From contig JBHLNF010000001.1 of NCBI GenBank assembly GCA_048937405.1, positions 352,001-416,000 on the forward strand: 64,000 nucleotides of DNA, written 5' to 3'. Of this stretch, positions 1,969 through 27,369 are shown piece after piece. The number at the start of each line of letters is the position of its first letter. The stretch's first letter is position 1. The position numbers were made by a program, and so were the translations under genes. This stretch comes from Promethearchaeota archaeon. GTDB taxonomy: Archaea; Asgardarchaeota; Lokiarchaeia; Sigyniarchaeales; SOKP01. A model generated the notes under the pieces. It ran no database searches, had not been told where the DNA came from, and saw nothing but the letters and a program-made list of their open reading frames with translations.

Positions 1969-2331
1969 TTAATTAATCATGGCTGTTTCGGTAAGTATTT
2001 CATTCTTTTTTAGTACCCATGTCTCGATTTCTAATGATTGGTTTTGTTCTTTTGTAGGTTTCCATGATTTAACGGTACTTTTTGGTATCCATGCTTCTTT
2101 CTCATCAAATTTAATGAATAAAGCTTTTTCAGTTTCTTTTGTTATCATTCCTGTTATTTTTATGGTCGGTTTTGGTTTACCATTATGAATGTATGTATTT
2201 GTTTTTCGGCTTGATGTTTTTTTTGGCTGTTTTTTAGGATTATCGTTTTCGAAGCATGTATCAATTACATATTCTTTAATTGCTTCCCTTACCAGTTTTT
2301 TTATTATTTTAATATCATCCTGAGTAAGCAT
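1969..2331 (-). CDS. Hypothetical virus/plasmid-type small protein
   Basis: 120 aa with RBS GAGGTGA; C-terminal ETEKA...WIPKS...IETWVLKK pattern recalled from small phage/archaeal virus proteins. Confidence 0.6.
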   Translation of the reverse strand: MLTQDDIKIIKKLVREAIKEYVIDTCFENDNPKKQPKKTSSRKTNTYIHNGKPKPTIKITGMITKETEKALFIKFDEKEAWIPKSTVKSWKPTKEQNQSLEIETWVLKKNEILTETAMIN

Positions 2332-3237: not shown

Positions 3238-3713
3238 TTCTCTGCCCTTGCAACAACACATACCATCATATAGGTTGATGTAAGAGATTACAACACATAC
3301 CATATTTTTATTCTGAAGAGGTTCTTTATTTTTTAGTAGATTACTGGAAAGAAGAAGTTAAAAAAGAGATTTGGCTGACTTCGATTTCCTAAAAGAATAC
3401 TTAATGTTGAGAATTCTTATAAAAGCTCTCATACATTGTGCTACATATTCAACATAATCTTTTAACTTAATATCTAAGCCATATTCCATTTCTTCTTCGG
3501 TATATTCCTTCTCAAGCCACTTTCGTGCTTCCTTTATGATGGAAACATCAAGGTCTTGTAAGAAATTACAATAGACACAACTTTCGTCTGGTCTGTGATC
3601 ACCTTTTAAATGATGAACCGCAGTAAACGGGTTGAAGTCTATTAGATTTTCAACTTCTTGTAAAGCTTCCATACCATCACCTCTATGCTATGTGTTGTTG
3701 GAAGAGCAGAAAA
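3238..3713. repeat. Inverted-repeat pair B (3238-3262 / 3689-3713) enclosing one ORF
   Basis: TTCTCTGCCCTTGCAACAACACATA vs TATGTGTTGTTGGAAGAGCAGAAAA, 22/25 complementary; same motif family as pair A. Confidence 0.85.
3358..3672 (-). CDS. Small His/Cys protein, paralog of 2587..2862
   Basis: 104 aa, strong RBS GAGGTGATGG; shared CxxC..FL..L / KDY.E / MR..IR.LN motifs. Confidence 0.75.
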   Translation of the reverse strand: MEALQEVENLIDFNPFTAVHHLKGDHRPDESCVYCNFLQDLDVSIIKEARKWLEKEYTEEEMEYGLDIKLKDYVEYVAQCMRAFIRILNIKYSFRKSKSAKSLF

Positions 3714-3780
3714 TTTTCATCGTATCTTGCGGTGGTCGGTTCAAGCCGACTTTTATTATTCTTTTTTTATTCCTCTTTAC

Positions 3781-4782
3781 TCATTCATGTAGGATTTTCA
3801 TTTCAGATGGAGTATAATTATTATTAACCATTCTTTTCAATACCTCCACATCTTTTAGCTTATATTTTCTCTGCGTGGTTTTAATTGTCCATATTTTCTT
3901 ACTGTGTAAATCTGCATTCTCTATTTTGCAGATATATCTAGGTCTTTTACATATCGGACAATTATCAGTTATCTGAGTTTTGTAGGTCTTTACAATTCTG
4001 AATTTACTCTGATGGAGATATCCAAACAAATTATAACTGTTTTTTACTCCTGAGCTATCTTTCCATAAGGCAATTTTGCTAAGGATATAAAAAATCGTAT
4101 AATACACATTATTTCGTCGTGGCAAATGATTTCTATAAGTTGTGTTAGGGTATTTTTCCCGAAATTCAGAATTATTCATAAGATACCCAAATCCTATAAC
4201 GTGGATATGAACGTTAAGCATTTTTTCAATAGTTCTATCTTTTTCCGTACATTTACAGAAGTATACCTTTTCATTACATTGTTTACAAACACTACTCCAT
4301 AGATGTAAAAATATAATTCCTCCTAGCACTCCCATATCTTTTAGCATTGGATATACGATTTTCTTCTTAAATTTAAGATATTTTTGATAGGTCTCAAAAG
4401 TGTCTCGTCTAATGTGAAATATAATGGAAAAATGCATGATTTTCCCAATACCAATACCGTTTGCATAGCAAATCCTTCGAAATTCCTTTAGTCTATCATT
4501 TAATTTTCTAGCTTTAACTGAACATGCGGTTATAAAACACTTTTCACAGTCCAACTTGTTACAATGTTGATAGATTGATTTTTTCGAGGTAATATCCTGT
4601 TCGCATTGTAATTCATACCGTTTCTTATTGCAATTGTTCCTGTATGTTCCCTGTGATCCCGCAGGTATCCAGTTGTAGCATTTCTCAAACTTTAAATTAG
4701 CAATCTGTTCAACCTTAATGGCGGTTTTTCTGCTAATTTTATTTAATGAAGTATTATAGGTAATCTGTTTTATCTTCGACAT
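3781..4782 (-). CDS. HUH-superfamily rolling-circle replication initiator (Rep) / Y-transposase-like endonuclease
   Basis: N-terminal Cys cluster CNKLDCEKC, motif I-like MHFSII, GGIIFLH, HUH motif HIHVIGFG, motif III-like YYTIFYILSK, then LFG and C-terminal CPIC. Confidence 0.75.
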   Translation of the reverse strand: MSKIKQITYNTSLNKISRKTAIKVEQIANLKFEKCYNWIPAGSQGTYRNNCNKKRYELQCEQDITSKKSIYQHCNKLDCEKCFITACSVKARKLNDRLKEFRRICYANGIGIGKIMHFSIIFHIRRDTFETYQKYLKFKKKIVYPMLKDMGVLGGIIFLHLWSSVCKQCNEKVYFCKCTEKDRTIEKMLNVHIHVIGFGYLMNNSEFREKYPNTTYRNHLPRRNNVYYTIFYILSKIALWKDSSGVKNSYNLFGYLHQSKFRIVKTYKTQITDNCPICKRPRYICKIENADLHSKKIWTIKTTQRKYKLKDVEVLKRMVNNNYTPSEMKILHE

Positions 4783-4864: not shown

Positions 4865-5003
4865 TGTAATACAATTAAGCTAATCGTAGTACAATTTAGG
4901 TATTCGTAATACAATTCAATATATTTTGTAATACAATTTGATTTATTTTGTAATACAAAATTTCCTTTTGTACTACAAATCAGCTTTCCTATGTAATACA
5001 ATT
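4865..5003. repeat. Iteron/operator-like array: 7 copies of GTA(A/G/C)TACAA
   Basis: Copies start at 4866, 4886, 4906, 4928, 4950, 4970, 4993 (spacing 20-23 bp), directly upstream of rep. Confidence 0.9.
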
Positions 5004-5082: not shown

Positions 5083-5916
5083 ATGCAAAGTAAATCATTA
5101 AAATATACAAAAATGAAAGAAAAAAATATAACATATATTATAATTCCTGCGATGGTTTTCGGGTTTATTTTTATTTCTTCCCTATTTTACTTTAATTGGG
5201 GGTATTTCTTAGATACTTATTTGACAACTGATGGATCTCTACTTATTATACTTGTAATTCTTGTGAGAACATTTATAGTTGGGGCAATTGGTATTCTATT
5301 ATATGCAAAATGGATTAACCAAGAATCACAGTATTTTTCAGACATTCGTTTTTTGTTTTCTTTGTTTTTTCTTGGTTTGGTGTTTGGAAAATTAGCCGAA
5401 TTGTTTTATTACTTCATGTACTACCATTTTTCAGAGTCGTTATTTATTATTTCACTTCAAGCTCGTTTTCTTTGGATGATACTTAACTTAAGCCCTCTTT
5501 TCTTTGTCACATTCGAAATATTATTGTACTATCTTTCTGAAAATTTTCAAACTTTTACATTTCTAAAAAAAGAGAACTCCATAATAATTAAAAGAGTCCT
5601 TATCCTAATAATTATGGTAATCGAAGCAATATTAATTTTCATATCCTCTAATGTTTTTGCCATTTCCCTGCTCTATCCGATTGTTACCATTTCCTCATTG
5701 TTGTTAGTTTCATGGCTTTTTTATCTTGCCCATAGATATAAACGATTAAATGACGCAAAACCATATATTTTATTTATCGGTTTTTCCATTTATGCCCTAA
5801 ATTCAATAGTTCGCTTTGTTTTCTTGCTTATTTTTGGTACAACTCCCCTTTATGTTATAATAACGGAAAGTTTGGATCTCATCGTGTCATTTCTTATTTT
5901 ATATGGTATTATGTAG
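5083..5916 (+). CDS. Polytopic membrane protein (about 7-8 TM)
   Basis: 277 aa with repeated long hydrophobic segments. Confidence 0.75.
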   Translation: MQSKSLKYTKMKEKNITYIIIPAMVFGFIFISSLFYFNWGYFLDTYLTTDGSLLIILVILVRTFIVGAIGILLYAKWINQESQYFSDIRFLFSLFFLGLVFGKLAELFYYFMYYHFSESLFIISLQARFLWMILNLSPLFFVTFEILLYYLSENFQTFTFLKKENSIIIKRVLILIIMVIEAILIFISSNVFAISLLYPIVTISSLLLVSWLFYLAHRYKRLNDAKPYILFIGFSIYALNSIVRFVFLLIFGTTPLYVIITESLDLIVSFLILYGIM

Positions 5917-8797: not shown

Positions 8798-9985
8798 ATG
8801 GTAGCTTACTGTTTTCAAAATCTTTGGGTTTTTATAACCCATTTTATACATATTTGTAATATGAAAAAACAGGGGAAGTACAAGATCTTTTCATATTTAG
8901 TGGAAAATTATTTAATATTTTATGCAAGTATAAATAAAAAAAAGAAATTATTGGCGTTTGCGATATTAAAGGATATTGATTTTAACATAACCTTAACAAT
9001 TTTAAATAGTTTCTTAAGAAAAAGAATAATTCAATATTATTCCATCCAATTAGACACATCTGAAAAATACGAGAAGGTTATAATTGTAAATATTGAAAAT
9101 TCTAAAAAAGAAGAAATTTTGAGGGCGTTTTATTTAATTCAACAAGAATTCATTGATTCTGATATCAAAGCTCAATTCCTTAAAAATGCTAGGTTAGAAA
9201 ACACGTTTTTAGGTGTTATCTTTAGAGAGATACATGATAAGCTATCTATCAAAAAGCAATCTGATTCTATTTTACTTTTAGATGAGGAAACATCAATACT
9301 CTATAATTTTTACAAAATTAATTTTAAGAGTATTAAAACCAAGAAATATTTTTTATTCACTTTTATAAAAGTAATTAACAATATCAGAACAAAAGGAGTC
9401 CTTATATTTCATTTTAAGATAGATAACATGGAAAACATTAAGTTTACCTCCTATTTTGTTGAAAAATGCGAAAATGAAGAACATATCAAGGATAGTGAAA
9501 AAAAAATTAATGAGTTTTTTAATTATGAATTGGTAAAAAGGCATACTATGAAAATTAAAGAATTTGGTAACTTTCTTTGGAGATTAGAAATTGCTAATAA
9601 CTATTTTGCTTTTGATGAGTTTAATGAGATGTTTGTTCCTACAATTCAGCATACATCAATGGATCTCCTCAGAATGAATAGTATTATCGAACAAAAGCTT
9701 TCTAACCATGACATTAAATATGTGCGACTGAATAAGAATTTGCTATTTATCAATCAAGCATATTTATTTTTGGTTTTAGAGCGTTTAGAATCAAAGGCAA
9801 TTGAGAAGCTCATCGAAAAGTTTAGTTCCAAATACTTCATTTATATCCTGATATTAAACCAAGTGGATTATGAAAAGCTACAAGAAATTGAATCACTTAT
9901 ATTAATCGATACAGTGAAGTTGCTTCATGAAAGGGAAATTCATCAATTTAATTATCAAAACTTCAGTAAGAAACAACTTGCATGA
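8798..9985 (+). CDS. Hypothetical protein (probable start 8860)
   Basis: 395 aa ORF, no recognisable motif. Confidence 0.65.
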   Translation: MVAYCFQNLWVFITHFIHICNMKKQGKYKIFSYLVENYLIFYASINKKKKLLAFAILKDIDFNITLTILNSFLRKRIIQYYSIQLDTSEKYEKVIIVNIENSKKEEILRAFYLIQQEFIDSDIKAQFLKNARLENTFLGVIFREIHDKLSIKKQSDSILLLDEETSILYNFYKINFKSIKTKKYFLFTFIKVINNIRTKGVLIFHFKIDNMENIKFTSYFVEKCENEEHIKDSEKKINEFFNYELVKRHTMKIKEFGNFLWRLEIANNYFAFDEFNEMFVPTIQHTSMDLLRMNSIIEQKLSNHDIKYVRLNKNLLFINQAYLFLVLERLESKAIEKLIEKFSSKYFIYILILNQVDYEKLQEIESLILIDTVKLLHEREIHQFNYQNFSKKQLA

Positions 9986-11942: not shown

Positions 11943-12503
11943 TTACCTCTCCTTAAACTCATCTAACTCTACATCTATTTCCTCTTCAAACTCCTCAAAA
12001 ATCTCCTCTCTTGTCAAATCTTTTTCCTGTTCTTGTTGTTCTTGTTCTTCTATGAATTGCTTTACTTTATCCTTAATTTCTTTTTGATTCTCATGGTAAA
12101 ATGTGTCTAATTGCTCTTTTTCTAATTGCTTTGAGGTGTTATTTTGCTTGGAGTTAGGATATTCCTGTAAATTTCCGTCTAGGTCAAATTCAGTTCGGGT
12201 AAAATCCCTGCTACTTTTAGGTGGTGGTGTTATTTTTCGTTTTATTGACTGTTTCTTGGGAATTTCTTTGTTTTTATTAAAATATTGGGTTATACGCCCT
12301 TCCTGCTTCTTTTCTTTTTTATTATTTATTTCTTCGGTTACCTGCTTAATTGTAGTCTCTATTCGTTCTCGGAATAACTCTTTATGTTGCTTATATTTTT
12401 CTTTATCAGCTCTAAAGGAGATTACCGTGCTGGGATTTTCAAATTTCTTAGGTCTATGTCCCTTCTTTTTTCGCTTTGAATCTCCTTCTGGCATGTTTAA
12501 CAC
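11943..12503 (-). CDS. Putative DNA-binding protein (basic arm + RHH-like strand/helix, acidic tail); likely start ATG 12494
   Basis: KKKGHRPKKF basic arm followed by TVISFRADKEKY; acidic C-terminus. Confidence 0.55.
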   Translation of the reverse strand: MLNMPEGDSKRKKKGHRPKKFENPSTVISFRADKEKYKQHKELFRERIETTIKQVTEEINNKKEKKQEGRITQYFNKNKEIPKKQSIKRKITPPPKSSRDFTRTEFDLDGNLQEYPNSKQNNTSKQLEKEQLDTFYHENQKEIKDKVKQFIEEQEQQEQEKDLTREEIFEEFEEEIDVELDEFKER

Positions 12504-12784
12504 CTACTTTTATCTTATTTACCCATATAAATGAATCTAGATATACTATTGAAAACCTTTAATATGGATAATTTCAATTGTAGTACAATTACTTTTACAT
12601 TTTTGTATTTAAACAACGAAATTTTTCAAAAAAAATGCAATAAACTTCAAGAGAAAAGAGGGTTGCCGAATGTAGCGAAGCGGAGTAAGGCTAGATTTGG
12701 GCGTAGCTTTCCAACTGACCTTTAGGAAGGAAGGAAAGCAAGAACAAATCGTATCCCTCCATTAAAAAAGGTAAGACGGAATTG
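12393..12784. repeat. Direct repeat copy 1 (~390 bp): 5' end of RHH-like gene + operator + GC-rich structured element
   Basis: Aligns with 13884-14275; core 12654-12766 has only 3 substitutions. Confidence 0.9.
12576..12590. promoter_or_regulatory. Palindromic operator AATTGTAGTACAATT
   Basis: Perfect palindrome around the same TGTAnTACA core as the 4865-5003 array; counterpart AATTGTAATACAAA at 14068-14081. Confidence 0.65.
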
Positions 12785-12951
12785 AATCAAATCGAAAAAA
12801 TTTAGGTATATAAGAATTTATTTTCAAATCTTAATTTTTTTTTTCATTCCTAGATTATACAGAAATTATCTATAAAATCCTCAACGACTTGTGAATCACT
12901 ACAAAATTGTTAAAATAGCTTATTTTTATAACATAGAACCTTTTATTATTT

Positions 12952-13872
12952 ATGGGCTTAGTGTCAGTAAAAAATATAAAAAGTTTAATTTCCATGAGTC
13001 CATCTTTATTACAGTCAATATTTAGAAATGTTCCCTTATATGTGAATTATGACTTAACTTGGCAATGTAATTTAAAATGTCGACATTGTTATTTTTTCTC
13101 ATCAACAACGGAATTAAAAAATAAAAGAAGAGAATTATCCAACAAAGACTGGGTAAAAGTTTTTAAATACCATAGAAAATTAGGAACAAAGATTGCTGTT
13201 TTAACAGGTGGAGAACCTACTTTAAGAACAGATGTTATAAAAGAAGCGATTAAAATTTTTCCCACAGTTCAAGTTGTATCAAATGGGGTTATAAAATTAC
13301 CCCAATTTAATGGATTTAAACAACCGAAATATTGGGTAAGTATAGATGGTAAAAAGGAAACACATAATAAGATAAGAGGTGCAAGGGTTTTTGATAATGT
13401 CATACAAAATATTCAAGAAAGCAATCCAGTCGTTGCATCCACCATAATGACATTAAATTATAAGGAAATTGAAGAAATAGTTAAGATTGGTCTTGATAAT
13501 GGTGCATCTGGATTAGTCTTTTTATTATATACCGACTATCCTAACAGCTCCCTCTTATTAAAGGGAAATATATTAAAAAAGGTAATTAAAGATATTTTAA
13601 AGGTAATGCATGAATATGGAAATTTTATTTTTTATTCAAAAAAAATGTTAGAAGTATACCTATCAAAAGAATTCGTACCTCATTGTATATTCAAAACTGG
13701 TCAAATAAAAAGTTTCTATCCCGATGGAACACAAAAATTTTGTGTTATGGGAAATTCACCGCTTCTATGTGAAAATTGTGGATGTGTCGTACCAATTGCT
13801 GCATATGCCTTATTTAAGAAATTTGACGCTGGTACAGTTGATAAAACGAGAAAATTGTTTAATCTTGCATAA
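12952..13872 (+). CDS. Radical SAM protein
   Basis: CNLKCRHC (CxxxCxxC), LTGGEP, VSIDG...HNKIRG, C-terminal Cys cluster CENCGC. Confidence 0.9.
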   Translation: MGLVSVKNIKSLISMSPSLLQSIFRNVPLYVNYDLTWQCNLKCRHCYFFSSTTELKNKRRELSNKDWVKVFKYHRKLGTKIAVLTGGEPTLRTDVIKEAIKIFPTVQVVSNGVIKLPQFNGFKQPKYWVSIDGKKETHNKIRGARVFDNVIQNIQESNPVVASTIMTLNYKEIEEIVKIGLDNGASGLVFLLYTDYPNSSLLLKGNILKKVIKDILKVMHEYGNFIFYSKKMLEVYLSKEFVPHCIFKTGQIKSFYPDGTQKFCVMGNSPLLCENCGCVVPIAAYALFKKFDAGTVDKTRKLFNLA

Positions 13873-13883
13873 TAATTAAGCTC

Positions 13884-13992
13884 ATATTTTTCTTTATCCG
13901 CTCTAAAGGAGATTACCTCGCTTGATTTCTCAAATTTCTTGGGTCGATGCCCTTTCTTCTTTTTCTTTGAATTATCATCAACCTATTTGAAC
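13884..13992 (-). pseudogene. Truncated copy of the RHH-like gene 11943..12503
   Basis: Translates *VDDNSKKKKKGHRPKKFEKSSEVISFRADKEKY; TAG sits where the intact copy has ATG; similarity ends next to the radical SAM stop. Confidence 0.75.
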
Positions 13993-14356
13993 ACCAAATT
14001 TAATATTAGTTAACCTTATGGAAGAATTTAAGAATATTTTTGAAATAAATTAGTATGGATAATTCTCAATTGTAATACAAACGACTCTGAATGTATCTGT
14101 CTAAACTCCTTAATTCTTCAATAATACTACATCTAATTCTAAGTAAAAAGAGGGTTGCCGAACGTAGCGAAGCGAAGTAAGGCTAGATTTGGGCGTAGCT
14201 TTCCGACTGACCTTTAGGAAGGAAGGAAAGCAAGAACAAATCGTATCCCTCCATTAAAGAGGTAAGGCGGAGTTGTTTTGCGGAGCAAAACTAGACCACT
14301 CCGTAGCTTTTCGATTGATATGGAATGAAAGAAGGAAAGCAAGGAGTGGTCGTATC
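13884..14356. repeat. Direct repeat copy 2 with an extra covarying hairpin module (14291-14356)
   Basis: Aligns with 12393-12784; continues with GTTTTGC-GGA-GCAAAAC and a second CTAGA...TCGTATC module. Confidence 0.9.
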
Positions 14357-14457
14357 GAAGCCAAGTATTTAAAATTATCTATATCCTCGATTTGAAAGAA
14401 TAGTGATTTTTCTATGACAAATCCTATTTTATCCAATTAAATGTTTAGATTCTCTTC

Positions 14458-15729
14458 TTATATTTTAGGAAAATTAAAATTATTTTTTTGAAGAACTTTC
14501 ATTAATTTGACATTGGATAATTGATAGTTAGCAAAATCATTTGAATTATATTGATCAACTCTGAAATTATGATTATATAGAAAATTACATAAGGCTTTCA
14601 ATTTACATAAGGAATTATAATACTTTTCTACAGAAAAAATTTCATTTCTATTTTTTCCTAAAACTATCTTAGCACCACATAAACCATCTCCCATTTTAAT
14701 ATAAAAAATATCAAGATCATGAACAAATTTATCTCTTAGGTCTTTATTTATCCAATCATTGAAATCATAACCTTCTATCTTAAGATATTCGAGTTTATCA
14801 TTCAAATTATAATCTAAAATAGACATAAAAAAATTTTTATAAGAATACATTTCTTTAAATTCATCTAACGGCATATCTTGAAATATTGTAATAATTTCAG
14901 GGGGGATTACATAATTATAGCGATATTTTATTTTAGAATAAATTCTATTGACAATTTTTTTTATTGCATTACTTTCATTTATAGAGGCATTTAACCTTTT
15001 CAAATAATTAACAAATTTTCTCTTAAAATTCATCAAATTCTTATCAGTAGGTAGAGTAGTTTTAAATTCTTGAATACAAAATATAGGAAATTTTTCTTTA
15101 TAAATACTGAAGTTATATCCTTCTCTTAAATTTATTAAGATTTGGTTTAAAACTCTTTTAGATATATCGTTTTCAGTTACTAATATTTTTCCATTTTCAA
15201 GATTTTTTTGAATTTCATTATAAAATTTATTCTTTATACTTAGCAACGTTATTAAATATGAAATTTGAAACTTTAATTGATTTTCAAATAATTGTTTATA
15301 TAAGTTGTTGAATCTCCTCAAAGCTTTCTCTGAACTTCTAAATGAACTTAACCATCCTTTTTCTTTTCTCATAAATTTATATTTTGATTTTAATTCAAGT
15401 TGCAAAGAAGATTGGAAAGGTTCAATAAGTAAAAAGTTAAAAAGGCTCTTATTTCTTATATAATAAAAAATATTATATAAATCAGATTTTAATTTGGTTC
15501 CATATTTCTCTCTTAGATTTTTTTGGAATCTAATAACTTCATCTAAAGCATAATTACTTGTTCTTATCGATTTATTTATTAAATTTAAAGAAAATACATC
15601 CAATACAATTAAGAATAAAATTGTGAATATGATTTGGGTGATTTTATATTGTTGATTTAAGATCACCAATATGTTAAGAAAATGAGCTAGTATTAGTAAA
15701 CAAATAAATAATTTCGTTGATAATTTCAT
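14458..15729 (-). CDS. Hypothetical protein with two N-terminal TM helices
   Basis: 423 aa; two hydrophobic segments in the first 50 aa. Confidence 0.65.
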   Translation of the reverse strand: MKLSTKLFICLLILAHFLNILVILNQQYKITQIIFTILFLIVLDVFSLNLINKSIRTSNYALDEVIRFQKNLREKYGTKLKSDLYNIFYYIRNKSLFNFLLIEPFQSSLQLELKSKYKFMRKEKGWLSSFRSSEKALRRFNNLYKQLFENQLKFQISYLITLLSIKNKFYNEIQKNLENGKILVTENDISKRVLNQILINLREGYNFSIYKEKFPIFCIQEFKTTLPTDKNLMNFKRKFVNYLKRLNASINESNAIKKIVNRIYSKIKYRYNYVIPPEIITIFQDMPLDEFKEMYSYKNFFMSILDYNLNDKLEYLKIEGYDFNDWINKDLRDKFVHDLDIFYIKMGDGLCGAKIVLGKNRNEIFSVEKYYNSLCKLKALCNFLYNHNFRVDQYNSNDFANYQLSNVKLMKVLQKNNFNFPKI

Positions 15730-19399: not shown

Positions 19400-19526
19400 T
19401 TGTACTACAATTATTCTTCTAAATTTAAATTGTAGTACATCAAAAATATTCCTCTTTTCAATTGTATTACACTTAAATTTCATCTGTATTACAATGTATT
19501 ACAATTGAACTTTCTTCCTATGTAAC
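19400..19526. repeat. Second cluster of TGTAnTACA sites
   Basis: TGTACTACA 19401, TGTAGTACA 19431, TGTATTACA 19463, 19485, 19495; shares CCTTTTGTACTACAA and TTCCTATGTAA with the rep-upstream array. Confidence 0.8.
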
Positions 19527-19881
19527 AAGTATATTTAACGACAGTTAAGATGAAATGATATATTTAGGTTTTGGATTTTAAAGGTTGCTCCCCACCTAAA
19601 TCCTCATCAAATTCATCAAAACTCATTCAAAACACTTCTTTTTCTGTTATTTTTTATTTTATAATTTTTTCTTAATAAAAACACATAAAAAAGATATAAT
19701 AAAACCCTTTGGAATGATTTTGAAGTTTTTATTAGAATTGTTCAAAAAAGTAGTAAATTAAAAATCATAAGAAATTAGATTATAAATGGCATGAATGCCT
19801 AGTATTATTTATAATATATTGATTTAAAGAAGTTAAAAATTTACTAACCCATAAATGTCAAAACGATAAAAAAATAAGCCA

Positions 19882-20638: not shown

Positions 20639-21424
20639 ATGAGGAAAAATATTCGAATTATTAGTCTTGTTGCGCTCTATACTTTTTGTATTGCGATTTA
20701 TGCCTTTTTTATTTTATTTCGCATAGACAATTTTTCCTTATTTCTCATTTTCTCTATAGGTAGTGTTGCTGCACTGTCTAGTAGTACAGTATACACAGTT
20801 CTACATTCTAAAGGTAGTTGGGAAGCGAATATAAAGAAAAAAAAAAAATTACCTGAATCTAAATCAATTAAAATAAAACCAACAAATATGTTTGAAGATT
20901 ATATTAGTGCTATGCCTTCAATCGAAGAATATATTGAGTCAGAGGACTCTTATAAAGATAAATCAATAATAGATAAATACATCTTTTCAAAGTTTAGTCA
21001 AGAGGAAATAAACAATATAAATCTCCTAAATTTGTCAAATACAGATAAGATTCTTTTTATCCGAGAAATGCTATATTTTGATACTATTGAGAGAAAATCA
21101 TTAATCGAAAATATGTTGAGAAATCAAGATAAATATGATGAAGAAATAACTTATACAGCAAACTTAAACATAATAAATATTGAGGATCAAATTCGAGTTT
21201 ATATTAGATCGCTAGTTGAACCCGGTGAAAAAACAAAAATAATGATAATTGATACTAGTGAACTGGTAGGGATAATCAAAGAGGAAATTGGCAGATTATA
21301 TGATTATGATTTAAAAGCTTTTCTGCTATCTTCAGGAGGTGTGCTGTTAGATGAAAATTTACTTATCAGAGATTGTAATATTGATGATGATGATGAAATT
21401 GCGTTAATCCCCTCAAGAAAATAA
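20639..21424 (+). CDS. Membrane-anchored protein with C-terminal ubiquitin-like domain
   Basis: Two N-terminal TMs; C-terminal beta-grasp pattern ...VGIIKEEIG...LSSGGVLLDE...DCNIDDDDEIALIP; no terminal Gly. Confidence 0.75.
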   Translation: MRKNIRIISLVALYTFCIAIYAFFILFRIDNFSLFLIFSIGSVAALSSSTVYTVLHSKGSWEANIKKKKKLPESKSIKIKPTNMFEDYISAMPSIEEYIESEDSYKDKSIIDKYIFSKFSQEEINNINLLNLSNTDKILFIREMLYFDTIERKSLIENMLRNQDKYDEEITYTANLNIINIEDQIRVYIRSLVEPGEKTKIMIIDTSELVGIIKEEIGRLYDYDLKAFLLSSGGVLLDENLLIRDCNIDDDDEIALIPSRK

Positions 21425-21481
21425 AAAAGTTAAAAATAAAACTAGGTTGTCTTATAATTGGTTGCTTTTTCTAAATATGAA

Positions 21482-21895
21482 TCAACCGGCTGTACTCGCC
21501 GGAATTAATAGTATATCGTCGCCATCATTAAGATTATAATCCAATAAAAGTGAATCCTCATCCATAGTAACCCCACCTGATGATAAATGAAAATCAGCTG
21601 GATCTAATCCAAATAAATTTGCAACCGTTTCTTTGATATCTCCCACATTATTACCTGTATTTACGTTTAATTTTTGTTTTTTTTCACCTGGACCTATGGT
21701 TGACATAAAGTATATTGAAATTCTTTTCCCTTCTGATATTACTCTTGTATCAGGAGTTTTGGATTCAATCACTTCTTCCGAACGTATTGAACTAGTATCT
21801 TCAACGTCATCATCTAAATTTTCGTCCAAATTTTCATCTAAATCGTCATCCAATTCCTCATCTAAATTTTCATCAAAATCCTCATCAAATTCCAT
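21482..21895 (-). CDS. Ubiquitin-like protein with acidic N-terminal extension
   Basis: VGDIKETVA...LSSGGVTMDEDSLLLDYNLNDGDDILLIPASTAG; ends in Gly; acidic 4-aa repeats at N-terminus. Confidence 0.8.
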   Translation of the reverse strand: MEFDEDFDENLDEELDDDLDENLDENLDDDVEDTSSIRSEEVIESKTPDTRVISEGKRISIYFMSTIGPGEKKQKLNVNTGNNVGDIKETVANLFGLDPADFHLSSGGVTMDEDSLLLDYNLNDGDDILLIPASTAG

Positions 21896-24343: not shown

Positions 24344-25678
24344 TTGAATTATGATTTTTTATATCTGATGGATATTTTTAACGCTGATCTTCATATTCAT
24401 AGTCCTCATTCAATTGCAGTATCGAAATCATTGAATTTAGATACAATGTTGGAAACTTGCAGGAAAAAAGGTTTAAATATTTTAGGGACGGGTGATATTT
24501 TACAACCAGAATGGTTTAAATATATGGAAAATAATTTAGAAAAGCAAAAAGATGGTTCCTATTCATATAAAGACATTTTTTTTATCCTTCAAACAGAAAT
24601 TGAAGATTTAGAAAATATTCATCATGTAGTTATGTTTCCTGATTTCAATTCGGTTAAAGAAATTCAGAATAAATTGAAAAAATATTCTAAAAATATATTT
24701 GATGAATGGGGTGGAAGACCTAGAGTGAATTTATCACCTCCTGCTTTAGTTGAAGAAATATCGGATTCTGGAGGTATAGTTGGTCCAGCCCATGCATTTA
24801 CTCCTTTTAAAGCGATTTTCCGACAAGGAAAATTTAAGTCTCTTGAAGATTGTTATGAGGGAGCAGTTAAAAAAGTAAGTTTTATTGAATTAGGGCTTTC
24901 TGCTAATACAGATTTAGCAGACCGACTAGAATCACTAAAAAATGTTACTTTTCTAAGTAATAGCGACGCTCATTCACAAGATCCACGTTCTTTAGGAAGA
25001 GAATTTAACAAATTTGAAATTGAAAATCCTTCTTTTGATGAAGTTTTATCAGCCTTAAACAGAAAAAATGGAAGAAAAGTTAATCTTAATATCGGTTTAA
25101 ACCCAAAGCTAGGAAAATATTACACTATGTTTTGTAATAAATGTAGAAGAAGGATTTTATTTAAGAATGTAAAGAAAAAAGGAAATTCAATCTTTAGTCA
25201 ATACTCAGTTACAGAGAATTTTGTTATATACTATTCTAACGATCCTATTTCTTCAAGATTAGATTATCTAGAACAAGTTTCTAAAAATAAATTGAATTGT
25301 CCAGCATGTAAAGAGGAATTAAATAAAAATTTCAAAGTTAAATTAGGAGTAAGTGAAAGGATTGAAAAAATTTCGACGTTTTCAGAACCTAATCATCCAG
25401 ATCATAGACCTCCCTATGTCAATGCCGTGCCATTAATTGATATTATTAGATCTATAAAAGCTATTAAAAGTACAAATAGTAAAACAGTTTTAAATCAATA
25501 TAATAAGATAATTCAAGAACTTGGCACAGAATTTGAAATTTTAATAGATATATCGATCAATAAGATTGAAGATTTTGATCATAATATAGCTTTAGTTGTA
25601 CAAGCTCTTAGGAATAATGAAATCGAATATACTCCAGGAGGGGGAGGTACATATGGTCAAATTAATTTACAAATATAG
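24344..25678 (+). CDS. PHP-domain endonuclease Q (TIGR00375-like)
   Basis: ADLHIHSPHS, GPAHAFTP, ELGLSA, SNSDAHS, LGREFN, GKYY..C..C, GV.ERI, PGGGGTYG. Confidence 0.85.
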   Translation: MNYDFLYLMDIFNADLHIHSPHSIAVSKSLNLDTMLETCRKKGLNILGTGDILQPEWFKYMENNLEKQKDGSYSYKDIFFILQTEIEDLENIHHVVMFPDFNSVKEIQNKLKKYSKNIFDEWGGRPRVNLSPPALVEEISDSGGIVGPAHAFTPFKAIFRQGKFKSLEDCYEGAVKKVSFIELGLSANTDLADRLESLKNVTFLSNSDAHSQDPRSLGREFNKFEIENPSFDEVLSALNRKNGRKVNLNIGLNPKLGKYYTMFCNKCRRRILFKNVKKKGNSIFSQYSVTENFVIYYSNDPISSRLDYLEQVSKNKLNCPACKEELNKNFKVKLGVSERIEKISTFSEPNHPDHRPPYVNAVPLIDIIRSIKAIKSTNSKTVLNQYNKIIQELGTEFEILIDISINKIEDFDHNIALVVQALRNNEIEYTPGGGGTYGQINLQI

Positions 25679-26223: not shown

Positions 26224-27369
26224 ATGAGTGTGGATGATATTTTAGAATTGGCTAAAAAACGATCTTCGGTAAGAGATAGATTTAATCAAATAGCACAACA
26301 TAACCAGAATCCCAATGTTAATCCTAATTGTGATGATGATAAATATTTAGCAGATCTTTTAAAGGTTTTAAAAATCAAAACATACGTGGTTGGCGTTGGC
26401 GGAGCTGGTAATAATACAGTCTCACGATTAGAAGATATGGGGATTAACCATGCGGAATCTGTTGTAATTAATACTGATGCCCATGATTTATATTATTCCA
26501 ATTCGAAACATAAAATACTTATTGGAAAAGAACGATGCAATGGGTTAGGTTCTGGAAATGACCCTCGAGTAGGGGCTGAAGCTGCAGAAGAAGACCGTGA
26601 GCGGTTAAATCAGTCATTAAACGCTGATATTGTCTTTCTAACGTGTGGTTTAGGTGGTGGTACAGGTACAGGAGCGGCTCCTATTGTAGCAGAAGAAGCA
26701 AAAAAGAATAATGCTATAGTTGTTACTTTTTGTTCACTCCCGTTTACATCTGAAGGGAAACAGAGATTAGAAAGAGCAAAATTAGGTTTAAAGAACCTAG
26801 CAAAATATTCTGATTTTCTTATTCCAATTCCAAATGACAACTTATTAGGAATTGTGGGAAAAATCCCCATGATTACTGGGTTTAAAATCATGGACGAAGT
26901 ATTAATAAGAAATATAGGTGAAGTTGTAAATTTGATTAATAACTGCGGGTTAGTTAATATCGATTTTGCTGATGTAAAAAAGACTCTTCTGGAAAATCCT
27001 GCTGGAAAATATCCCTCGGGATTAGTTGGTATAGCGGAATGTATAGGAGATGAGGCAGATCTAGTTGATAAAGCAAGATTAGCTTTGAACAATCCTCTTT
27101 TACAACCAGATCCAAATCAAGTAAATAGATGCTTAGTATCAGTTACAGGAGATCATACTTTGACATTATCCAAGGTAGATAAGGTAATTTCTACAATTTC
27201 AAATGAAATTCCAGAAGTAGCTCAATTAAAATTTGGAGTTCAAAATAATCCAGATATGGGATCTAAAATAAAAATTATGGTCTTAGCAAATGGTCCGGTA
27301 TCGCCCTATGTGCGAGATGCTGTAGATTCAGATATTAGTTTTGCGCAACCAAATATTGTCGGATTCTAA
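26224..27369 (+). CDS. ftsZ: Cell division GTPase FtsZ
   Basis: GVGGAGNN, NTD, GLGSGNDP, GLGGGTGTG, PFTSEG..R, IPNDNLL, T7 loop NIDFADV. Confidence 0.95.
   Translation: MSVDDILELAKKRSSVRDRFNQIAQHNQNPNVNPNCDDDKYLADLLKVLKIKTYVVGVGGAGNNTVSRLEDMGINHAESVVINTDAHDLYYSNSKHKILIGKERCNGLGSGNDPRVGAEAAEEDRERLNQSLNADIVFLTCGLGGGTGTGAAPIVAEEAKKNNAIVVTFCSLPFTSEGKQRLERAKLGLKNLAKYSDFLIPIPNDNLLGIVGKIPMITGFKIMDEVLIRNIGEVVNLINNCGLVNIDFADVKKTLLENPAGKYPSGLVGIAECIGDEADLVDKARLALNNPLLQPDPNQVNRCLVSVTGDHTLTLSKVDKVISTISNEIPEVAQLKFGVQNNPDMGSKIKIMVLANGPVSPYVRDAVDSDISFAQPNIVGF

What the first reader, a model, noticed from the sequence alone, without database searches (positions are those of the whole stretch)
12654..14356. 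Novel structured nucleic-acid motif with internal covariation, three modules
Seen: the module CTAGA-TTTGGG-CGTAGCTTT-CCrACTGA-CCTTTAGG-AAGGAAGGAAAGCAAG-AACAAA-TCGTATC occurs at 12691-12755 and 14183-14247. A variant, CTAGA-CCACTC-CGTAGCTTT-TCGATTGA-TATGGAATG-AAAGAAGGAAAGCAAG-GAGTGG-TCGTATC, is at 14291-14356. The stems change while keeping pairing (TTTG/CAAA to CCAC/GTGG; CT/AG to TT/AA; CC/GG to TAT/ATG), and the purine-rich internal loops stay fixed. Each module is preceded by a GNA-triloop hairpin: GCGAAGC (12675, 14167) or GTTTTGC-GGA-GCAAAAC (14275-14291). Known: C(GNA)G triloops and tandem G-A pairs are especially stable in ssDNA and common in single-strand origins and HUH target sites. 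Inference: a folded ssDNA signal (origin, terminus or REP-like site) for the nearby Rep; an ncRNA is the alternative.
Basis: partly seen in the sequence, partly recalled or inferred. Interest (0 to 1): 0.85.

Follow-up and report, generated by a model that had tools for sequence, protein, structure and literature searches.

The report
Two-domain structured RNA on Asgard mobile element
The three GC-rich modules are real copies of a rare, previously uncatalogued folded nucleic-acid element (most likely a ~215-nt non-coding RNA made of two related three-way junctions) carried by a rolling-circle-type mobile element of a Loki-type Asgard archaeon; its function is unknown and a single-stranded-DNA role is not excluded.

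Summary
Observation confirmed. The three modules are at the stated coordinates. They are GC islands (46-52% GC against 27.6% for the window), match no Rfam family, and keep their helices through compensatory changes.

The native unit is a tandem pair, A+B (window 14150-14362). Each half is a three-way junction: P1, a variable P2 hairpin, and a long P3 arm with fixed purine loops and fixed junction strands. M1 (12658-12759) is a solo A copy inside a 378-nt duplication. It is 97% identical to M2, while the flanks are 67-77% identical.

The same A+B pair occurs in two other genomes of the 54 searched in the genus, intact in G008 and decayed in G068. A degenerate hybrid module lies on one metagenome contig. 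None was found in 150 genomes sampled from the phylum.

Both intact copies sit in the same rare integrated element. It carries an HUH-like Rep, an FtsK/HerA-type ATPase and TGTAnTACA iterons. In G000, G008 and contig L189 the copy lies beside a divergent 186-aa RHH-like gene.

G.U pairs fix the folded strand as +. A palindrome-plus-TATA-like motif precedes the A modules.

Best reading: an element-encoded small RNA (about 0.5). An ssDNA origin or terminus signal stays alive (about 0.3). This scan noted the stretch before only on this same DNA.

The parts
14150..14251 (+). Domain A of the native tandem RNA (M2). P1 14150-14154/14247-14251; P2 hairpin 14157-14183; junction UAGA; P3 arm 14188-14240 with a GUA/AA loop, a 7-bp GCUUUCC/GGAAAGC helix and a 6x6 purine loop; junction UCGUAU.
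14266..14362 (+). Domain B of the native tandem RNA (M3). P1 14266-14268/14360-14362; P2 14275-14291; UAGA; P3 14296-14349; UCGUAUC. It is a paralogue of A: the stems covary while the loops are kept.
12658..12759 (+). Solo copy of domain A (M1). It is followed by only the first ~15 nt of a B domain. It matches M2 at 102 of 105 positions, while the flanks are 67-77% identical.
12389..12766 (.). First copy of the 378-nt duplicated block: 5' end of the RHH-like gene, the divergent promoter/operator region, and domain A. The second copy is 13880-14258.
11943..12503 (-). 186-aa RHH-like gene, divergent from the RNA. It is the only gene that repeatedly neighbours the RNA (G000, G008, L189). Only 3 sequences of this protein are found among 5.8 billion.
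13875..13979 (-). Remnant of the 5' end of a second RHH-like gene (residues 6-40, 71% identity), upstream of M2.
12577..12614 (+). Palindrome TGTAGTACA (12579-12587) plus a TATA-like GTATTTAAAC (12605-12614), about 45 nt before P1 of M1. It is the putative operator and promoter of the RNA. A related motif lies upstream of M2 (palindrome at 14071), in L189, and in G008.
12952..13872 (+). Radical-SAM gene lying between the two copies of the block. It is cargo, not part of the RNA.
3781..4782 (-). Putative HUH-type Rep of the element (P0004). It has an HIH motif and the segment YYTIFY; the family keeps an invariant HxH and Tyr.
4865..5000 (.). Iteron array of TGTAnTACA / CGTAnTACAAT with ~21-nt spacing, next to the Rep gene. 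A second array lies at 19401-19503.
19518..19551 (+). 34-nt stretch identical in G000 and G008 (L014 1791-1824), after which the two genomes diverge. It marks the right-hand breakpoint of the shared element. In G008 the RNA ends 144 nt before it.

Best explanation
The modules are copies of a small structured non-coding RNA encoded by a rare integrated rolling-circle-type element of a Lokiarchaeial (Promethearchaeota) genus.

The functional gene is the tandem A+B unit on the + strand, about 215 nt (14150-14362). It consists of two paralogous three-way-junction domains. Their variable stems (P1, P2, P3a) hold invariant junction strands (UAGA, UCGUAUC) and invariant purine-rich internal loops: a GUA/AA loop and a 6x6 loop that can be drawn as a K-turn.

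Inferred, not shown: it is transcribed from a promoter divergent from the 186-aa RHH-like gene and controlled through the TGTAnTACA palindrome between them. Its conserved loops would serve as protein-binding surfaces, so that it acts in trans as an RNP or regulator of the element's maintenance or replication. One possibility is that it engages the iteron-binding protein, because its conserved unpaired CGUA/UCGUAU segments resemble iteron half-sites.

M1 is a solo A domain. It arrived when two diverged variants of the element recombined around a radical-SAM cargo gene.
For: Shown:
- No Rfam family or tRNA matches.
- The modules are sharp GC islands in AT-rich DNA.
- The helices are kept by compensatory changes within and between genomes.
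- 14 G.U cells all lie on the + strand, against one C.A cell. The loops are purine-rich on the + strand only.
- Sequence constraint is strong: 102/105 identity between M1 and M2, against 77% in the adjacent coding DNA and 67% in the intergenic DNA. The P3 apex is near-identical in G000 and G008 (one difference) and G068.
- P2(A) carries a GCAA (GNRA) tetraloop in G008.
- Seven of 8 copies keep UGA next to the apical stem on one strand and NNN-GA on the other, which is the K-turn layout.
- A palindrome-plus-TATA-like motif lies 45-60 nt upstream of the A domain in G000 (M1; degenerate before M2), L189 and G008. In G008 a near-identical motif sits ~20 nt before a GTPase-like ORF.
- The RNA is not at a fixed distance from the shared right-hand breakpoint: 144 nt in G008 and 5.2 kb in G000.
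- More distant elements of the same Rep family lack it, as expected for an accessory gene.
Against: - There is no expression data; no RNA run holds the locus.
- The promoter and terminator assignments rest on AT-rich motifs in a 27% GC genome, and the TATA-like box upstream of M2 is degenerate.
- Six of the 7 P2 end loops are triloops and several are GNA, a feature more typical of stable ssDNA hairpins.
- The element carries an HUH-like Rep and iterons, so an ssDNA signal is expected somewhere in it, and this is its only strongly structured non-coding region apart from 3668-3754.
- The K-turn drawing leaves an extra 3-nt bulge on the opposite strand and is untested.
- Only two intact copies exist, so covariation rests largely on the A/B paralogy.
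Confidence: 0.5

Rival explanations
1. It is a folded single-stranded-DNA signal of the rolling-circle element. The candidates are a single-strand origin for lagging-strand priming, or an origin/terminus recognition structure for the HUH-like Rep. It would form on the displaced + strand during replication or transposition.
For: - The element encodes a protein with an invariant HxH and Tyr. Two of 35 family members weakly match the IS91 zinc domain. The top fold matches are enriched in HUH nucleases: SIRV1 ORF119 at Z 5.3, RepB at 4.7, Vientovirus Rep at 4.6, and the Helitron transposase at 3.8.
- Iteron arrays flank the region, and single palindromes bracket the modules in G008.
- The modules lie near the shared right-hand breakpoint in G008.
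- The DNA fold has a z-score of -3.7, as good as the RNA fold.
- GNA triloops and tandem G.A pairs are stable in DNA (own knowledge).
- The unpaired CGTA/TCGTAT segments resemble iteron half-sites.
- By analogy with IS91, the displaced strand is antisense to the transposase gene, which here is the + strand that folds (own knowledge of IS91/ISCR models).
Against: - The GNA and GCGAAGC loops are not conserved.
- Known HUH end signals are simple hairpins at fixed distances from the ends. Here the distance varies from 144 nt to 5.2 kb, and the structure is a 215-nt double three-way junction.
- Related Rep-family elements show neither the motif nor a comparable GC island.
- By analogy with RCR plasmids or Helitrons, the displaced strand would be the Rep sense strand, which is the wrong strand.
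- The HUH assignment itself has no Pfam support and only low Z scores.
Confidence: 0.3
2. It is a cis-regulatory leader, either a riboswitch or a protein-binding 5' UTR. Its tandem aptamers would control the gene downstream on the same strand.
For: - Its two homologous three-way-junction domains in tandem resemble tandem-aptamer riboswitches such as the glycine riboswitch (own knowledge).
- M1 lies 190 nt upstream of the radical-SAM gene.
- In G008 the pair lies about 155 nt upstream of a GTPase-like ORF.
Against: - The downstream gene differs at every locus: radical SAM after M1, a convergent 423-aa gene after M3, a GTPase-like gene in G008, and none in G068.
- In G008 a separate promoter-like motif lies between the RNA and the ORF.
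- No Rfam riboswitch matches.
Confidence: 0.05
3. It acts as double-stranded DNA, for example as a protein-binding or recombination site of the element, or it is a decaying remnant with no present function. On this view the apparent structure is incidental.
For: - Half of the known loci are damaged. The G068 copy has lost its P1 5' strand and carries stem-breaking changes. L189 is a degenerate hybrid. M1 has lost domain B.
- The distribution is very narrow.
Against: - Compensatory changes in at least 8 pairs and the one-sided G.U pattern are not expected for a dsDNA site.
- 97% identity amid flanks of 67-77% identity argues for present or recent constraint.
Confidence: 0.07

Closest known systems
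Single-strand origins of rolling-circle replicons (ssoA/ssoU of pMV158-type plasmids; minus-strand origin of filamentous phages)
   Same: It is a non-coding, strand-specific region of 150-300 nt with several stem-loops and conserved unpaired bases, on a replicon with an HUH initiator. The filamentous-phage minus origin likewise uses two adjacent hairpins. (Comparison from own knowledge.)
   Different: There is no sequence relation. The CS-6-like TAGCGA is present only in the G000 copies. The host is archaeal. Each unit is a three-way junction with K-turn-like loops, and a promoter-like motif lies upstream. Function was not tested.
CopG (RHH repressor) plus countertranscript RNA II control of repB in pMV158
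   Same: It pairs a small RHH-type protein gene with a small RNA on an HUH-Rep element. The palindromic operator between divergent genes suggests autoregulation. (Own knowledge of pMV158.)
   Different: RNA II is a short antisense RNA overlapping the rep leader. Here the RNA is 8-10 kb from the Rep gene, is highly structured, and no complementarity to the element was found. The RHH fold of the 186-aa protein is only a lead.
Orphan structured RNAs carried by mobile elements and prophages (phi29 pRNA, ROOL, GOLLD, HEARO/omega RNA)
   Same: It is a structured, element-borne RNA with conserved loops and no coding capacity. phi29 pRNA is also built on a three-way junction and works with a DNA-pump ATPase, and this element carries an FtsK/HerA-type ATPase.
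   Different: None of these Rfam families matches, even at E up to 10. Size and architecture differ. The element has no TnpB/IscB-type gene next to the RNA.
Archaeal K-turn RNAs bound by L7Ae (box C/D and H/ACA sRNAs)
   Same: CUGA (UUGA or AUGA in B copies) lies directly 5' of a short stem. It faces a 3-nt bulge followed by GA, which can form tandem sheared G.A pairs.
   Different: There is no C box (RUGAUGA), no guide segment and no ACA box or pseudouridylation pocket. The segment upstream of CUGA is paired internally.
Subterminal hairpins of HUH transposons (IS200/IS605, IS91 ter/ori, Helitron 3' hairpin), REP/REPIN and integron attC sites
   Same: It folds on one strand, keeps structure through covariation, and is associated with an HUH enzyme.
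   Different: Those are single short hairpins at or near both ends, or are present in many copies. Here there are three copies in the genome, the structure is a 215-nt branched fold, and its distance to the breakpoint varies.

Membership tests
Any Rfam 15 family | Match to a family covariance model at its gathering score | tested here: not met
   There were 0 matches in the whole window at gathering thresholds. At E up to 10 on 12300-14700 only two spurious hits appeared, mir-7 and GHRLOS, both outside the modules.
tRNA / tmRNA | Cloverleaf detected by ARAGORN | tested here: not met
   0 genes in the window.
Box C/D sRNA | C box RUGAUGA paired with D box CUGA, plus a 10-12 nt unpaired guide upstream of D | tested here: not met
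   CUGA is present only in A copies. No RUGAUGA is present, and the would-be guide is the 5' strand of helix P3b.
K-turn motif (L7Ae-binding) | C stem, 3-nt bulge, then tandem sheared G.A/A.G pairs | tested here: inconclusive
   The sequence layout fits in 7 of 8 copies. However, an extra 3-nt bulge is needed on the other strand, and no 3D or binding test was possible.
Single-strand origin of an RCR replicon | Non-coding, orientation-specific, extensively folded region on a replicon with an HUH initiator | tested here: inconclusive
   The fold and the strand specificity are met. The HUH nature of P0004 rests on motifs and on low Z scores.
Single-strand origin of an RCR replicon | Supports ssDNA-to-dsDNA conversion, that is, priming on the displaced strand | not testable with these tools
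   This needs replication assays.
ssoA-type origin | Conserved RSB and CS-6 (TAGCGT/A) elements | tested here: not met
   TAGCGA occurs in P2 of the G000 A copies only and is replaced in G008, G068 and L189.
HUH transposon end hairpin / REP-like repeat | Short hairpin at a fixed subterminal position at the element ends, or many dispersed copies | tested here: not met
   Only 3 copies occur in the 4.47-Mb genome. The distance to the shared breakpoint is 144 nt in G008 and 5.2 kb in G000. No counterpart was seen in the left part of the element that was read.
Riboswitch / cis-regulatory leader | Conserved position upstream of a conserved class of regulated gene | tested here: not met
   The downstream genes differ at every locus.
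HUH endonuclease superfamily (for the element's P0004) | HUH metal-binding motif and catalytic Tyr on a ferredoxin-like nuclease fold | tested here: inconclusive
   H192, H194 and Y232 are invariant in 35 homologues. There is no Pfam hit. Foldseek places RepB at E 0.048. With VIA-align, 10 HUH nuclease entries are among the top 37 rows, but Z is only 3.3-5.3.

The most novel reading that the evidence does not exclude
The A+B unit is a new class of element-encoded RNA whose conserved unpaired CGUA/UCGUAU segments mimic the element's own (T/C)GTAnTAC iterons. It would bind the iteron-binding protein (Rep or the RHH-like protein) and so set the replication or excision level of a rolling-circle element in an Asgard archaeon. 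That would be an RNA decoy for a DNA origin-binding protein.
Probability: 0.12. Interest if true: 0.75.

Novelty: new member of a known kind. Interest (0 to 1): 0.5.

Why it matters
Very little is known about how mobile elements of Asgard archaea replicate and regulate themselves, and I found no structured RNA described for them in the papers I searched. This locus offers a compact, well-defined test object: a 215-nt two-domain fold with clear covariation, a candidate protein partner (the RHH-like gene), an operator palindrome shared with iteron arrays, and an HUH-like Rep.

Either outcome would be a first for this group. One is an element-encoded regulatory or RNP RNA. The other is an unusually elaborate ssDNA origin or terminus. 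Both are directly testable in vitro.

Its reach is limited by rarity. It occurs in two intact copies and three damaged ones, all in one genus.

Tried and rejected
- **Rfam and tRNA.** Rfam at gathering and at permissive thresholds, and ARAGORN, found nothing.
- **Known ribozymes and RNAs, by eye.** I compared the modules with the cores or signature motifs of hammerhead, hairpin, twister and BHB, with SRP helix 8 and with 5S loop E. None fits.
- **Weak covariance-model hits in relatives.** Hits at E 0.009-0.8 are AT-rich chance matches that lack the conserved loops.
- **Exact-pattern scans.** Scans of genome, viral and metagenome collections gave 54, 7 and at least 80 listed loci. Only L057, which scores the same as G008, is real.
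- **Viral contigs (IMG/VR).** No relative of the Rep or of the RHH-like protein was found.
- **Expression.** No RNA holder is listed for the locus. The contigs laid from four sediment and soil runs mostly cover the radical-SAM gene, and their variant letters over the modules were not retrievable.
- **18-nt identity to G000:C16.** It lies in what looks like a coding region, so it is chance.
- **Search for a pC194/pGT5-type nick site (TCTTGATA).** There were 185 hits against 147 expected, which is uninformative.
- **GC island in the related element L201 (5480-5625).** It has no significant fold.
- **Related Rep-family loci L199-L202.** Model R2 with filters off found no module.
- **The 186-aa protein.** It has no Pfam, PHROG or PDB sequence match. 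The atlas gives only sub-threshold RHH-family leads.
- **The Fylgjavirus provirus paper.** It describes a different element with no Rep and no RNA mentioned.
Full report
**1.

The three modules read exactly as described. They are the sharpest non-coding GC islands in the first 20 kb of a window that is 27.6% GC, reaching 46-52%. Their conserved 14-mer is far over-represented: 6 hits with up to 2 mismatches against 0.35 expected. Rfam finds nothing at gathering thresholds in the window, or at E up to 10 around the locus. ARAGORN finds no tRNA.

**2. Anatomy**

Folding shows that each is a three-way junction:

- a closing helix P1 (A: GAGGG/CCCUC; B: GGC/GCC);
- a variable hairpin P2;
- the junction UAGA;
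- a long arm P3;
- the junction UCGUAUC.

P3 is built, from base to tip, as follows:

- a variable 7-bp base, P3a;
- a fixed GUA/AA internal loop;
- an almost invariant 7-bp helix, GCUUUCC/GGAAAGC;
- a symmetric 6x6 purine loop, AAXUGA facing AAYGAA;
- a short capped stem.

The 6x6 loop can be drawn in two ways. One is a stack of non-canonical pairs. The other is a K-turn, with the short capped stem as C stem, a 3-nt bulge AAY and tandem G.A/A.G pairs. This layout is kept in 7 of 8 copies, but it needs a second 3-nt bulge on the opposite strand. I could not test it.

**3. Copies and census**

M1 and M2 are not independent. They lie in a 378-nt duplication, 12389-12766 against 13880-14258. The block also contains the 5' end of a 186-aa gene on the minus strand and the intergenic region. 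Within the block, P1-to-P1 identity is 102/105. The coding part is 77% identical and the intergenic part 67%. M1 keeps only the first ~15 nt of a B domain.

Covariance models R1 and R2 gave this census:

- In the 4.47-Mb genome they find only these three copies.
- In G008, the A+B pair is intact (L014 1477-1680; it scores the same as L057, a Promethearchaeota MAG).
- In G068, the pair is 5'-truncated and carries stem-breaking changes (L191 528-723).
- So 3 of the 54 genomes searched in the genus hold it. None of 150 genomes sampled across the phylum does.
- One 973-nt metagenome contig (L189) carries a degenerate A/B hybrid next to a homologue of the 186-aa gene.

The native gene is therefore the tandem A+B unit. 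M1 is a solo A copy.

**4. Covariation and strand**

On the 8 module copies, 86% of cells pair and six pairs change on both sides. No shuffle out of 500 reaches the covariation score, and all slid registers score far lower.

Across the three full-length copies, eight pairs show compensatory changes. Examples:

- P2(A): GCC/GGC becomes GCU/AGC.
- P3a(A): UUU/AAA becomes GUA/UAC.
- P1(B): GGC/GCC becomes GAC/GUC.
- P2(B): GUUUUGC becomes AUGUUGC, with matching partners.

There are fourteen G.U cells on the + strand against one C.A cell. The loops are purine-rich on the + strand only. The + strand is therefore the folded strand. This argument holds equally for RNA and for ssDNA.

**5. What is not conserved**

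These vary between copies:

- P2(A) ends in GAA in G000, UUA in L189, a GCAA GNRA tetraloop in G008 and GUA in G068.
- P2(B) ends in GGA, AGA or AAC.

Triloops do predominate, and this remains a mild point for DNA.

**6. Context**

G000 and G008 share a colinear set of genes at 64-80% amino-acid identity: window 1969-2331, 2587-2862, 3358-3672, 3781-4782, 5083-5916, 8798-9985 and 11943-12503. The shared region ends at an identical 34-mer (window 19518-19551; L014 1791-1824), after which the two genomes differ. The two loci also have different neighbours. This is therefore a rare integrated element.

It contains:

- an FtsK/HerA-type ATPase just upstream of the window;
- defence-like cargo, including a DpnII/MboI-type REase fold and a weak HEPN match;
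- iteron arrays of TGTAnTACA with ~21-nt spacing at 4865-5000 and 19401-19503, plus single palindromes 75-95 nt upstream of the A domains of G000 and G008.

The 333-aa protein at 3781-4782(-) has no Pfam hit. Its family has 114 representatives, with an invariant HxH and Tyr plus a Cys cluster. Two of 35 members weakly match the IS91 zinc domain. A confident model (pLDDT 91.5) has as its best, though weak, structural matches a list enriched in HUH nucleases: SIRV1 ORF119 at Z 5.3, RepB at 4.7, Vientovirus Rep at 4.6, then the nanovirus, geminivirus, parvovirus and circovirus Reps and the Helitron transposase. I accept it as a probable HUH Rep.

This Rep occurs only in G000 and G008 among the 54 genomes of the genus. 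Those are exactly the two genomes with intact RNA. More distant Rep-family elements (37-45% identity; L199-L202) have the ATPase, and L201 has similar iterons. They have no module and no comparable non-coding GC island.

**7. RNA or ssDNA?**

For RNA:

- A [palindrome]-[GTAT(A)TTTAA(A)C] motif lies 45-60 nt upstream of the A domain in G000 (M1; degenerate before M2), L189 and G008. In G008 a near-identical motif sits ~20 nt before a GTPase-like ORF, which is the position of an archaeal promoter for a leaderless mRNA.
- In G000 and L189 the RNA is divergent from the RHH-like gene, with the palindrome between the two. This is a classic operator arrangement.
- There is a GNRA tetraloop in one copy and a K-turn-like loop in most.
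- The distance to the element breakpoint varies.
- The motif is absent from related Rep elements.

For ssDNA:

- The element has an HUH-like Rep and iterons.
- The fold is equally significant with DNA parameters.
- GNA triloops and tandem G.A pairs are common in it.
- Its conserved unpaired CGTA/TCGTAT segments resemble iteron half-sites.
- In the IS91 model the displaced strand is antisense to the transposase gene, which here is the folding + strand. In the plasmid and Helitron models it would be the other strand.

No RNA-seq run holds the locus, so the question cannot be settled here. My odds are RNA about 0.5, ssDNA signal about 0.3, cis-regulatory leader 0.05, and dsDNA site or remnant 0.07.

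**8. Mechanism proposed (inferred)**

The A+B RNA is transcribed from an operator-controlled promoter. It folds into two three-way junctions that display identical purine loops and junction strands. These are bound by a protein; candidates are the RHH-like protein, Rep and L7Ae. The RNA-protein complex then regulates maintenance or replication of the element.

G000 carries a composite of two diverged element variants joined around a radical-SAM cargo gene. This explains the solo A copy and the truncated second RHH-like gene.

**9. Novelty and score**

This is a new, very narrowly distributed family of structured nucleic acid on an Asgard mobile element. It is of a known general kind: an orphan structured RNA, or an sso-like signal, carried by a mobile element. 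Interest is moderate because the structure is clean and the setting unusual, while the function is unknown and there are only two intact copies.

Earlier notes of this scan cover this same DNA only. They gave me the leads to the palindrome arrays and to the Rep, both of which I checked.

Noticed in passing
window 4865-5000 and 19401-19503: Two arrays of 5-7 TGTAnTACA / CGTAnTACAAT repeats with ~21-nt spacing. One lies next to the putative Rep gene and the other near the shared right breakpoint. A related Rep-family element (L201 5420-5500) has ATCGTAnTAC repeats. They are probably iterons or operators of the element.
   Followed up: partly
window 3668-3754: This is the only other non-coding GC island in the element, just 3' of the Rep gene. 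It contains the heptamer TCGTATC, the same as the module junction, followed by the hairpin GTCGG-TTCAAG-CCGAC. The fold is only weakly significant (z -2.2 on the + strand).
   Followed up: partly
G000:C7:351496-353610 (L195 196-2310, minus strand; runs over the window start): A 704-aa ORF with an N-terminal Cys-rich region and a C-terminal D...E.K (PD-(D/E)xK-like) segment. It has no Pfam or PHROG hit. Another note of this scan calls it a TFB-like nuclease.
   Followed up: no
window 14378-14449: An AT-rich 72-nt hairpin lies immediately after domain B and after the stop of the convergent 423-aa gene. It produced a spurious mir-7 hit at E 0.088. It may be a bidirectional terminator.
   Followed up: no
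window 24344-25678: A 444-aa ORF outside the element with sub-threshold matches to PHP_C and to the IS200-like Y1 transposase (E 4e-4, below the cut-off). It is not the Rep of the element.
   Followed up: no
L192 2642-3892 (G000:C7:340642-341892): A TnpB-type gene (OrfB_IS605 plus Cas12f1-like TNB domain) about 22 kb upstream of the RNA, next to RPA-, Cdc6- and RadA-like genes. It is unrelated to the modules.
   Followed up: no
L191 1466-2215 (G068): A LAGLIDADG-like ORF (GFFDGDG segment) lies about 750 nt downstream of the decayed RNA copy in G068, which lacks the Rep.
   Followed up: no
L182 2455-2480 (G007): The 16-mer TATATTTAACGACAGT of the G000/G008 right-end motif also occurs in G007, about 0.8 kb from a 72-aa ORF similar to the N-terminus of the RHH-like protein. 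This may be a third, RNA-less relative of the element.
   Followed up: no
window 20639-21895 and 26224-27369: A convergent pair of weak ubiquitin-like domain ORFs and an FtsZ/tubulin gene lie just outside the element. They are typical Asgard host genes.
   Followed up: no
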